Shown: positions 14,901-17,900 of the stretch, piece by piece
Layout of the letters: each line of letters begins with the position of its first letter
How positions within the stretch are numbered: position 1 is the first letter of the stretch
DNA from: Diadema antillarum
Taxonomy: Eukaryota
Assembly (NCBI RefSeq): GCF_040938485.1
Contig: NW_027270997.1
Location: 186,001 to 250,000, forward strand
Length of the DNA stretch: 64,000 bases
Direction of reading: 5' to 3'
Program-made: the position numbers

Positions 14901-17900
14901 ATTACAGAAACGGTCTATCTATACCACTGACTGCGACAGCTTCAGACAGCCTTGATTTTTCATATCCTACGATCACGATGATGATTATGAGCAGAATTAT
15001 CAATCATACTAAAGATCAAACAGAAGAATAAGTAATTGGTTTGATGCTCCCCTACACTCCACGACAAGAGCTGACTTTGATATATAGGCCTACTAGCTAC
15101 CTATTGTATCCCTTGTAAAATTTCCACAAGACTACAGCATGAACGATTACCAGTCTATCATACCAAGAGGTTTCTAAAACAAGCATCTCATTCTTTTTTT
15201 TTTCATCACATGAGGAAAAACCAATCTCAGAGTAACTGCGGTCTTAAAACCCTCGAAGGTATTGAAGTTAAATAAGTAAAATTAAGTACTGAAGACTTAT
15301 ACACAAAGGTACCCAATGCAAAGGCACCTAGAAATTAAAGCTGTATGCAGAAGATTCTGCCTCTGCATAATCTCATGACCCTATAAGACAACATAAACAC
15401 ATTGATGCTCTGCTGACTCAGTCTAGATTAATACCAAATATGGCAAACTTTGCCACTGAGCAGTTTAATGATGTCCAGATGGAAAAAAAAACAACAACAT
15501 GGAAGAATGTAAAAACTCTGAAAGTAATCTTGTGTCACCATCAAGCTATTGGTTAACATTTACAGTACATCACTTTCATTTTATTCTAACACTCGTGTAT
15601 CAGGAATAAATTGAGTGTGATAAATCCGGTAAAAAACACATTTACAACTTTTGTTTCACAATCAGTTTTTTTGGCGTTTGTTTGTTTTCAAAAACTTCAT
15701 TTTCACACACAATAATAGAACCACTGAAGCTAATACCATTCAAGCGAACACTGTTGAATAATACCTTTTTAAAACAAAATGAAATTTAATGCCCCTGCCA
15801 CTTTACCCCTTACATTACACATACTGCACAGAACGACATCACATACGTTGGGTCTTCCGAATTCACCTTTGATTTGTCTAAAATAATCTACTGACACGGG
15901 AAGGCATGGCTGGTTAACTTTAGTCAGTATCATCGGCAACGTTCATGCACATAATGTCTATCGAGTATTTTCAGATAGTGGTGCTGAAAGGGTTAAATGT
16001 TGTAACTCTCTAAGGCATCATGAGATGTATTGTACGGCAAAAGCTCCCTGCAATGTACCGATGTTGCACGCTAACAGAACATAATACATTCAAATTGGCG
16101 TTTGAGATAAGACGTTATCTTACAACTACAATAAGCAAGATTCCTATGTCAAATTTAATACTTTGAAATATCATGTTTTTGGTGTCCAAGGAAATGCGTC
16201 CCGTAAACTTGATCTGAAATTGACAGGAGCCATCCTGACACGAATTACTATCTACCTACACAATTTTTCTGCAAACTGTACAAAGTAATCTTACCCTGAA
16301 CACATTTATGCTAAAACTCAATATCATTTATTCTTTTTTTAATTAATTGTTGTTATCATTTTTAACCTCTCCGCTTTAAGATCAATCCTGTGTGAATATC
16401 TTAAATCTATTACCTTCTATCAATCCTACTTTCTGGTGAGTAGAACAATTACTAGTTTTCCACTAAAGCGCTTACCAATTTCAAATGGAATGTATAGAAC
16501 ACATTTGGAACATAAATACAGGTTGTACTGAACCTTGCTGTTTACACACAATACAATCAGTGAATTTGTAATTTTTCAATTTGTACCCACCAAGATGAAA
16601 AGAACTAAAATTGTGCAGTGCATTGTTGGATGGTGATATCTATGTATACCGGTCATTCACAAGTATTATTACTAAAGGAGCTAGGCATTAGTTCATCATA
16701 TCATGTTGACAGCCAAGCGAGAATCTGATATACAGATTATCAGCCAACTGACCTGACATGTACATATTTGCGAGTGTGTGATATTTTCAGTGGCCATGAT
16801 CTGACTTATTTGATCAACTTTAATCACTAGACAGTGAAATTTGTCCTAATTTGTTTTAGGAAGTCTTTAATTACTGAGCAAGAAACAGAGCTTATCAACA
16901 GAAATGCATAGGAAGGATTACCGTCTTCCATGTCCCTTCCAATTTATGAAATGACAAACCACCTTCAATATACGATGTATATATACATTTTTTTTTTTTC
17001 CAAAATAGCATCTCAAAATTACCAACACCTGGCAGAAAAAAAAAGAGAGTGAAATTGCAAAGTATCAGGGTTCTTTTCCAAACAGTCGACTAAACAACTG
17101 CAACACTGCAACAACAGAAGGCACAAAATTCTTTATTCCCTTGCTTACTGCACAGAAGAAAAGAAAAAAGTGAATTCATAGACAATTTGGTGAAGTGAGG
17201 CTCTTGTCAAATTTGTGATTAAGGCACACAAAGTAATGACAAGCACAGCTAAATTGAAATCAGAAATTGTCATCTTCTAAACTGTCATTTTGGCATGATT
17301 GCCAAATCATCACATGCCTATGTAGGAGCACATCTAATAGCATATGTTCATATCTTGATTAATTGCAGAGATGATGAAGAGCTAGAAATATTATATTCAT
17401 TACATCCAGTGCAAAATATGATGTGATTCATTCTTTTTATCTTTTTTTTTACACCTTAGATAACGAATTTGCATTACAACACTCTCCTGTTCATTCATTC
17501 ATCTGTACTCCATTTCGGTAATGACCTGAAGGTGAAGGTCATTGCCGAAATGGAGTACAGATGAATGAACGAACAGGAGAGTACAGATGAAGGAATGAAC
17601 AGAAGGAGAGTACAGACAAAGGAATGAATGGATAGACTGACCGACAGACCAAGACACTCCACCTGATGCATACACAGTGCTGAGACACTCGGCAAACATA
17701 AACAAACATAACAAATGAACACAGTGCTGAGACACTCAGCAAACATAAACAAACATAACAAATGACAATAGTGTTGTGACACTCAGCAAACATAAACAAA
17801 CATAACAAATGAACACAGTGCTGAGACACTCAGCAAACATAAACAAACATAACAAATGAACACAGTGCTGAGACACTCAGCAAACATAAACGAACATAAC

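What the first reader, a model, noticed from the sequence alone, without database searches (positions are those of the whole stretch)
17481..17582. 47-bp-arm near-perfect hairpin in the probable C11orf54 3'UTR (hairpin-RNA / pre-miRNA candidate)
Seen: arms 17481-17527 and 17536-17582 pair fully except at two positions (one G-U wobble and one C-A mismatch on either strand), around an 8-nt loop (gaaggtga). There are no TIR/TSD hallmarks, and degenerate direct copies of the right arm continue to about 17650. By manual scan the first AATAAA on the minus strand after the C11orf54 stop (19102) is at 17132-17137, so the hairpin would lie inside a 3'UTR of about 2 kb. Known: dsRNA stems of this length are substrates for Dicer/Drosha, ADAR and Staufen. 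Inference: a young miRNA/endo-siRNA source or an mRNA localisation/editing element on a metabolic enzyme transcript.
Basis: partly seen in the sequence, partly recalled or inferred. Interest (0 to 1): 0.65.

Follow-up and report, generated by a model that had tools for sequence, protein, structure and literature searches.

The report
Young inverted duplication beside a minisatellite
A real 47-base-pair hairpin lies downstream of a sea-urchin metabolic gene, most likely a recent local copying accident at the edge of a repeat tract rather than a microRNA gene.

Summary
Arms 17481-17527 and 17536-17582 pair at 45 of 47 positions around an 8-nt loop. The fold z-score is -13.4 on the minus strand and -12.1 on the plus strand. 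The window is from a diadematid sea urchin, not human. Its C11orf54 homologue (8 exons, minus strand) stops at 19102-19104. No AAUAAA or AUUAAA lies between the stop and 17137. The AAUAAA at 17132-17137 has a GU-rich downstream element, so a UTR of about 2 kb that holds the hairpin is plausible but unproven.

Nothing supports a microRNA. No Rfam family reaches its threshold. The stem is 47 bp rather than about 35, the loop is 8 nt, and there is no CNNC motif.

The right arm continues into three 26-29-bp tandem units and then an 11-copy 47-bp minisatellite. There is no target-site duplication, no outer inverted repeat and no second copy in the window. At least seven other long hairpins lie in the same 64 kb.

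My best reading is a young inverted duplication made by replication template switching, probably neutral. If transcribed, it would be a generic dsRNA substrate. Genome copy number and conservation could not be tested.

The parts
17481..17527 (.). Left arm of the hairpin. I infer it is the inverted copy.
   Evidence: It is 45 of 47 complementary to 17536-17582. It has no tandem neighbours of its own.
17528..17535 (.). 8-nt spacer or loop, GAAGGTGA. GAAGGT is directly doubled at 17528-17533 and 17534-17539.
   Evidence: Read from the sequence and from the folds.
17536..17582 (.). Right arm, inferred to be the source. It consists of 17 nt of unique sequence, tandem unit 1, and the first 4 nt of unit 2.
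17553..17636 (.). Degenerate tandem repeat of 26-29 bp, three units. Unit 1 lies inside the right arm.
   Evidence: the repeat finder family D3; TRF period 29, 2.8 copies, 86% matches; pairwise comparisons.
17672..18191 (.). 47-bp minisatellite, 11.1 copies, 94% matches.
   Evidence: TRF score 935. No second array in the window.
17132..17137 (-). First canonical AAUAAA downstream of the stop codon. CA follows at +24/25 and then a GU-rich stretch.
   Evidence: G+T is 0.72 in the 40 nt scored, against a background mean of 0.59.
19102..19275 (-). Last coding exon of the C11orf54 homologue plus its stop codon (19102-19104).
   Evidence: tblastn with the named Diadema setosum protein gives 94.7% identity over 57 aa. 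Pfam DUF1907, E 2.3e-19.

Best explanation
The hairpin is a young, local inverted duplication. A 47-nt stretch at the proximal edge of a compound tandem-repeat block was copied in reverse-complement orientation 8 nt to its left. That stretch held 17 nt of unique sequence plus the first 26-bp tandem unit and 4 nt of the next. The most likely cause is a template switch (snap-back) of the nascent strand during replication or repair, which makes a near-perfect stem in one event. Two transitions have accumulated since then. The doubled GAAGGT at the centre may be a later slippage that widened the spacer. The element is probably neutral. It lies about 1.5 kb past the stop codon of the C11orf54 homologue, probably (about 0.6) inside a 2-kb 3'UTR isoform. 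There it would form a 47-bp duplex open to promiscuous ADAR editing and dsRNA-binding proteins. The anatomy, the absence of transposon hallmarks and the plausibility of the UTR are shown. The template-switch mechanism, the direction of copying, neutrality and transcription are inferred.
For: 1) Source and copy abut, with an 8-nt spacer and 45 of 47 pairing. 2) The right arm is continuous with tandem units 2 and 3, whereas the left arm has no such neighbours. 3) The reverse complement of the left arm differs from unit 1 at 1 of 30 positions. Unit 1 differs from unit 2 by 2 substitutions and 3 gap columns, and from unit 3 at 7 of 30. This suggests the tandem array is older than the inversion (by my hand-entered Fisher tables, 2/47 against 7/26 gives p=0.008, and 2/47 against 3/26 gives p=0.34). 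4) No target-site duplication of 4 nt or more with matching termini was found at any tested boundary. No inverted match lies beyond the minisatellite: score 18 against a shuffle mean of 18.5. 5) No second copy of the hairpin or the array lies in the 64-kb window, whereas other hairpin elements there do have second copies and TA or TTAA flanks. 6) The two arm differences give each strand one wobble and one mismatch, so there is no sign of strand-specific RNA selection. 7) Template switching is documented to create perfect stems in a single event, and the authors' screen accepted stems of 30-55 bases (PMC10710096, passages). 8) Long hairpins are common here: 9 census rows, and 17 inverted pairs within 400 nt, against 0 in 60 simulations.
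Against: No sister-species or second-haplotype sequence could be examined, so the ancestral state is unknown and the template switch is unproven. I saw no microhomology at the outer junction (17480/17583). The age argument rests on very few substitutions, and one of the two comparisons is not significant. A single-copy result in 64 kb says little about a genome of about 0.9 Gb or more. D. setosum repeats are 36.98% of the assembly, of which 25.87% are unclassified (PMC11066563, passages), so an uncatalogued family is possible. Foldback transposons can carry tandem subrepeats in their inverted repeats (PMC4079207, passages), which resembles the outer tandem units seen here.
Confidence: 0.6

Rival explanations
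1. The hairpin is a solo copy of a miniature foldback or MITE-type transposon that inserted next to, or seeded, the tandem repeats.
For: The window holds several foldback or MITE-like elements: 9937-10187 and 39931-40193 are 83% alike with TA flanks, and 34478-34840 has TTAA flanks. Foldback elements occur in sea urchins and can carry tandem subrepeats inside their inverted repeats (PMC4079207, passages). Most Diadema repeats are unclassified.
Against: No target-site duplication was found. There is no second copy in the window. Tandem units lie on one side only. The units look more diverged than the arms, which is the opposite of what expansion after insertion predicts, unless the arms are homogenised.
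Confidence: 0.13
2. It is a lineage-specific small-RNA locus, either a young miRNA or a hairpin-RNA/endo-siRNA source, processed out of the C11orf54 3'UTR.
For: It is by far the strongest local structure of the putative UTR: -79.5 kcal/mol per 120 nt, against a median of -21.6 and sd 10 over 95 windows. It lies upstream of the first canonical poly(A) signal. Template-switch hairpins have become miRNA genes in mammals (PMC10710096).
Against: 0 of 4227 Rfam families reach their gathering score. The 12 of 18 sub-threshold rows that overlap the hairpin belong to 8 unrelated plant and animal miRNA families, 4 of them matching on both strands, so the matches reflect structure only. The stem is 47 bp against the preferred 35 bp, and the loop is 8 nt against 10 or more (preference quoted in PMC10710096). 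No CNNC lies within 40 nt on either strand. An internal hairpin has no free end for Dicer (established knowledge, recalled).
Confidence: 0.07
3. It is a selected cis-acting dsRNA element of the mRNA, such as an ADAR editing, Staufen-type decay or localisation signal.
For: A 47-bp duplex is long enough for dsRNA-binding domains and ADAR (established knowledge, recalled). [quoted passage not shown]
Against: No conservation data are available. The two arm substitutions do not favour the mRNA strand. Long, nearly perfect dsRNAs are depleted from mature mRNAs across Metazoa, which argues that such structures are tolerated or removed rather than selected (PMC7006430, passages). Editing of such a stem would be a generic consequence, not evidence of function.
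Confidence: 0.08
4. It is an assembly or sequencing artefact, that is, a foldback chimera.
For: Long-read assemblies can contain foldback artefacts (recalled).
Against: The arms differ at 2 positions, and the structure lies inside a contiguous, otherwise ordinary region between a minisatellite and unique sequence. Artefactual foldbacks are expected to be exact and much longer.
Confidence: 0.03

Closest known systems
Template-switch mutations that create hairpins (Monttinen et al. 2023, PNAS, PMC10710096; passages read)
   Same: A reverse-complement copy lies right next to its source and gives a near-perfect stem in one event. The 47-nt stem is within the 30-55-base range those authors screened, and the locus lies in a probably transcribed region.
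   Different: Here the event is inferred from a single sequence, with no outgroup and no ancestral reconstruction. It lies at the edge of a tandem-repeat block, and simple-repeat regions were excluded from that study. No small-RNA evidence exists.
Foldback transposons (Drosophila FB, Tetris and Galileo; sea-urchin foldback elements cited in PMC4079207, passages)
   Same: The structure is almost entirely inverted repeat, with tandem subrepeats in the outer part of an arm and a small middle segment.
   Different: It is about 100 bp rather than hundreds to thousands. The subrepeats are on one side only. There is no target-site duplication and no second copy in the window.
Canonical animal pri-miRNA hairpins
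   Same: A stem-loop in a probable Pol II transcript. Unrelated long-stem miRNA models give structure-only sub-threshold Rfam matches.
   Different: The stem is 47 bp rather than about 35, the loop is 8 nt rather than 10 or more, there is no CNNC, and no family reaches its gathering score.
Repeat-derived intramolecular dsRNA that is hyper-edited by ADAR (PMC9989829; PMC7006430)
   Same: A near-perfect inverted repeat longer than 40 bp within one probable transcript.
   Different: It is formed by a local duplication of unique and tandem sequence, not by two copies of a dispersed repeat. Editing was not tested.

Membership tests
Known miRNA family (Rfam) | The score reaches the family's gathering threshold. 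| tested here: not met
   The best match is 62 bits against a gathering score of 101 (mir-5014). 12 of 18 sub-threshold rows overlap the hairpin and belong to 8 unrelated families, 4 of them matching on both strands. 0 families reach gathering in the whole window.
Canonical animal pri-miRNA | A stem of about 35 bp with an unstructured apical loop of 10 nt or more. | tested here: not met
   The stem is 47 bp and the loop 8 nt. The preference is quoted in PMC10710096.
Canonical animal pri-miRNA | Accessory motifs: basal UG, apical UGU/GUG and downstream CNNC. | tested here: not met
   No CNNC lies within 40 nt 3' of the stem on either strand. UG near the base occurs on the minus strand only. GUG at the loop occurs on the plus strand only. 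The motif list is recalled.
Canonical animal pri-miRNA / hpRNA | Discrete 21-23-nt reads with the Drosha or Dicer overhang signature. | not testable with these tools
   No small-RNA data are available.
MITE / foldback DNA transposon | A target-site duplication flanking the inverted termini. | tested here: not met
   No duplication of 4 nt or more with matching termini was found at 17481/17582 or at the alternative right ends. In the same window, 9937-10187 and 39931-40193 show TA flanks and 34478-34840 shows TTAA flanks.
MITE / foldback DNA transposon | Multiple dispersed copies. | tested here: inconclusive
   No second copy lies in the 64-kb window. The genome-wide count is not testable, because no eukaryotic DNA collection is on hand.
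Template-switch / inverted-duplication hairpin | An inverted copy adjacent to its source, near-identical, with the loop central. | tested here: met
   8-nt spacer and 45 of 47 pairing.
Template-switch / inverted-duplication hairpin | The ancestral or outgroup sequence lacks the hairpin but keeps the source. | not testable with these tools
   No sister-species DNA is available. ORF-translation searches were uninformative.
3'UTR element of the C11orf54 homologue | It lies between the stop codon and the poly(A) site that is used. | tested here: inconclusive
   No AAUAAA or AUUAAA lies between 19102 and 17137, and the 17132-17137 signal has a good downstream element. However, 7 variant hexamers lie upstream of the hairpin. 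No RNA data are available.

The most novel reading that the evidence does not exclude
The hairpin is a proto-gene caught young. A template-switch event inside the 3'UTR of a sea-urchin housekeeping enzyme mRNA created a 47-bp stem that is already processed into endo-siRNAs or a nascent miRNA, or is heavily A-to-I edited. That would be an echinoderm example of small-RNA gene birth by template switching, which has so far been documented in mammals (PMC10710096).
Probability: 0.06. Interest if true: 0.55.

Novelty: new member of a known kind. Interest (0 to 1): 0.2.

Why it matters
As it stands it matters little. It is one of many long hairpins in a repeat-rich sea-urchin region, and it shows how tandem-repeat edges can spawn near-perfect inverted duplications. 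If relatives show the predicted state before the event, with the right arm present and the left arm absent, it would be a clean invertebrate example of a one-step template-switch hairpin in a transcribed region. That is the raw material proposed for de novo miRNA genes. A 47-bp near-perfect duplex in a mature mRNA would also be a member of a class that is depleted across Metazoa (PMC7006430).

Tried and rejected
1) Rfam at E<=10 on 15000-21000 and at gathering scores on the whole window gave only structure-driven sub-threshold matches.

2) I looked for copies or conservation through ORF translations across the hairpin. The word-indexed search found no candidate. phmmer against 1.84 billion representatives gave 2 hits, E 5.4e-06 and 2.7e-04, at 31-33% identity in 5-6 stretches. 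On inspection both are translations of other, unrelated tandem repeats, so I rejected them.

3) The TSD search at several candidate boundaries and the search for an outer inverted repeat beyond the minisatellite both found nothing.

4) I asked whether the 47-nt arm is a degenerate 47-bp minisatellite unit. The repeat finder gives 81% for the 238-nt copy starting at 17625, but most of that copy overlaps the true array, so there is no convincing homology. I treat the equal length of 47 as coincidence.

5) The strand skew (plus strand A>T and C>G from about 12 kb to 30 kb) is compatible with minus-strand transcription through the hairpin. The A-rich minisatellite and a minus-strand P450 gene downstream confound it, so I did not use it.

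Genome copy number, polymorphism and conservation therefore stayed unchecked. Paper supplements were not consulted.

Full report
OBSERVATION. Arms 17481-17527 and 17536-17582 are 47 nt each and complementary at 45 of 47 positions, around the 8-nt spacer GAAGGTGA.
- The exceptions are 17493(A)/17570(C) and 17519(T)/17544(G). Both are transitions, so RNA from either strand has one G-U wobble and one A-C mismatch.
- A 200-nt piece folds at -93.6 kcal/mol on the minus strand (z -13.4) and -88.3 on the plus strand (z -12.1). 0 of 200 shuffles do as well on either strand.
- As DNA the hairpin folds at -50.6 kcal/mol, z -16.
- In 60 first-order Markov simulations of the window the longest hairpin arm was 15 nt.
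- The structure is therefore not a chance match.

ORGANISM AND GENE.
- The translated last exon is 95% identical to the NCBI protein 'ester hydrolase C11orf54 homolog [Diadema setosum]'.
- tblastn with that named protein maps 8 exons on the minus strand from 30653 to 19105, at 80-97% identity per exon. The stop codon is at 19102-19104.
- The last exon matches Pfam DUF1907.
- The window is therefore from a diadematid sea urchin, and I do not take it for human.
- I mapped and searched the exons one by one. I did not build or search a joined spliced model.
- The N block 19578-19739 lies in the last intron and was left alone.
- Downstream on the same strand are cytochrome P450 exons at 2898-7625.

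IS IT IN THE 3'UTR? On the minus strand there is no AAUAAA or AUUAAA between the stop codon and 17137.
- The AAUAAA at 17132-17137 is followed by CA at +24/25 and a GU-rich stretch. G+T is 0.72 there, against a background of 0.59 +/- 0.12.
- This predicts cleavage near 17107 and a UTR of about 2.0 kb, with the hairpin at UTR positions about 1520-1621.
- That length is ordinary for a sea urchin. In S. purpuratus the mean mRNA is 3.5 kb, of which 52% is 3'UTR (PMC3460201, passages).
- However, seven variant hexamers lie upstream of the hairpin: AAGAAA (twice), AAUACA, AGUAAA, AAUAGA, GAUAAA and UAUAAA. Shorter isoforms cannot be excluded.
- I put the chance that some isoform contains the hairpin at about 0.6.
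- Within that putative UTR the hairpin is the outstanding structure: -79.5 kcal/mol per 120 nt, against a median of -21.6 and sd 10 over 95 windows.

ANATOMY.
- The right arm is not free-standing. Its outer 30 nt are the first unit, plus 4 nt of the second, of a degenerate 26-29-bp tandem repeat of three units at 17553-17636.
- About 35 nt further on, an 11.1-copy 47-bp minisatellite begins (17672-18191, 94% matches).
- The left arm has no such neighbours.
- The reverse complement of the left arm differs from unit 1 at 1 of 30 positions.
- Unit 1 differs from unit 2 by 2 substitutions and 3 gap columns, and from unit 3 at 7 of 30 positions.
- By my hand-entered Fisher tables, 2/47 against 7/26 gives p=0.008, and 2/47 against 3/26 gives p=0.34.
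- At the variable site 17570, the left arm and units 2 and 3 share T, while the right arm has C.
- The simplest history is a tandem array first, followed by an inverted copy of its first 47 nt placed 8 nt to the left, followed by two transitions.
- The centre carries a direct doubling of GAAGGT (17528-17533 and 17534-17539). This may be a later slippage that widened a 2-nt spacer to 8 nt. That point is inference.

NOT A RECOGNISABLE TRANSPOSON.
- I found no target-site duplication at 17481/17582 or at alternative right ends.
- There is no inverted match on the far side of the minisatellite: score 18 against a shuffle mean of 18.5 and maximum of 31.
- No longer-range inverted or direct repeat encloses the block.
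- There is no second copy of the hairpin or the array in the window.
- As a positive control, other hairpin elements in the same window do show transposon features. 9937-10187 and 39931-40193 are 83% alike with TA flanks. 34478-34840 has TTAA flanks. A further family recurs at 8921-9318, 46908-47120 and 51216-51575.

BACKGROUND RATE.
- The window has 17 inverted pairs with arms of 24 nt or more within 400 nt.
- My ungapped census (arm at least 20 nt, at most 10% mismatch, loop at most 100 nt) gave 9 rows. These are 8 different hairpins once the target's alternative pairing is merged, and two of them are nested in one element.
- Long hairpins are therefore a common product of this genome region.

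NOT A KNOWN RNA FAMILY.
- At E<=10, 12 of 18 Rfam rows overlap the hairpin.
- They belong to 8 unrelated plant and animal miRNA families, 4 of them matching on both strands. They score 30-62 bits, against gathering scores of 62-139.
- At gathering thresholds the whole window has 0 matches among 4227 families.
- The geometry departs from animal pri-miRNAs. Those prefer a 35-bp stem and a loop of 10 nt or more (quoted in PMC10710096). Here the stem is 47 bp, the loop 8 nt, and no CNNC lies within 40 nt on either strand.

MECHANISM.
- Template switching during replication is documented to create perfect reverse-complement repeats in a single event. Stems of 30-55 bases were screened, and events of up to 83 bases were inferred (PMC10710096, passages). 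The present structure fits that class.
- If transcribed, a 47-bp duplex is a generic ADAR or dsRBP substrate.
- A-to-I editing in S. purpuratus is concentrated in repeat-derived dsRNA, with 86% of sites in repeats (PMC9989829, passages).
- Long, nearly perfect dsRNAs are depleted from mature mRNAs across Metazoa (PMC7006430, passages). This argues for tolerance or eventual loss rather than selected function.

LIMITS.
- No eukaryotic DNA collection, RNA-seq or small-RNA data were available.
- Proxy searches with ORF translations across the hairpin found nothing informative.
- Genome copy number, polymorphism, conservation, transcription, editing and small-RNA production all remain untested.
- D. 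setosum repeats are 36.98% of the assembly, of which 25.87% are unclassified (PMC11066563, passages). An uncatalogued repeat family therefore cannot be excluded.

VERDICT.
- The UTR placement is plausible.
- The miRNA or regulatory reading is unsupported, and the geometry argues against it.
- My best explanation is a young template-switch inverted duplication at a tandem-repeat edge (confidence 0.6).
- Interest is low, at 0.2.

Noticed in passing
window 17672-18191: Each 47-bp minisatellite unit holds its own 7-bp stem-loop, TGCTGAG-ACA-CTCAGCA (fold). On the minus (mRNA-sense) strand each unit also holds a GU-rich run, UGUUUGUUUAUGUUUG. From recall only, this resembles the CELF1-type GU-rich decay element. 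There would be eleven copies in the putative 3'UTR.
   Followed up: partly
window 10489-11368: An 880-bp palindrome with 440-nt arms, 91% complementary and no spacer. Each arm is also weakly similar to the other in direct orientation (67%), so the palindrome is nested.
   Followed up: no
window 9937-10187 and 39931-40193: Two copies, 83% alike, of a foldback MITE-like element of about 250 bp, with A/T-rich ends, GAGTGAAAAT-type subrepeats and TA flanks.
   Followed up: partly
window 34478-34840: A 363-bp foldback element with arms of about 115-136 nt at 91% complementarity, flanked by or ending in TTAA. TTAA is itself palindromic, so a target-site duplication cannot be told apart from the element's own terminus.
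   Followed up: no
window 8921-9318, 46908-47120, 51216-51575: A dispersed repeat family, 68-96% alike, that itself contains inverted repeats.
   Followed up: no
window 14339-14391: A perfect 26-nt-arm palindrome with a single central base, and no other copy in the window.
   Followed up: no
window 2898-7625, minus strand: Three ORFs match Pfam cytochrome P450 at profile positions 1-81, 87-295 and 333-407. This is the next gene downstream of the C11orf54 homologue on the same strand.
   Followed up: partly
window 48055-48684, plus strand: An ORF whose end matches Pfam Ribosomal_L6e, E 3.3e-20.
   Followed up: no
window 58188-59996 and 35922-36959, plus strand: Long open frames of 603 and 346 aa with no Pfam match at E<=0.01.
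   Followed up: no
window 28740-29300, plus strand (intron of the C11orf54 homologue): A 187-aa open frame that looked to me, from recall, like the C-terminal part of a retrotransposon polyprotein. Pfam gave no match.
   Followed up: partly
window 19578-19739: A 162-base N block in the last intron of the C11orf54 homologue.
   Followed up: no
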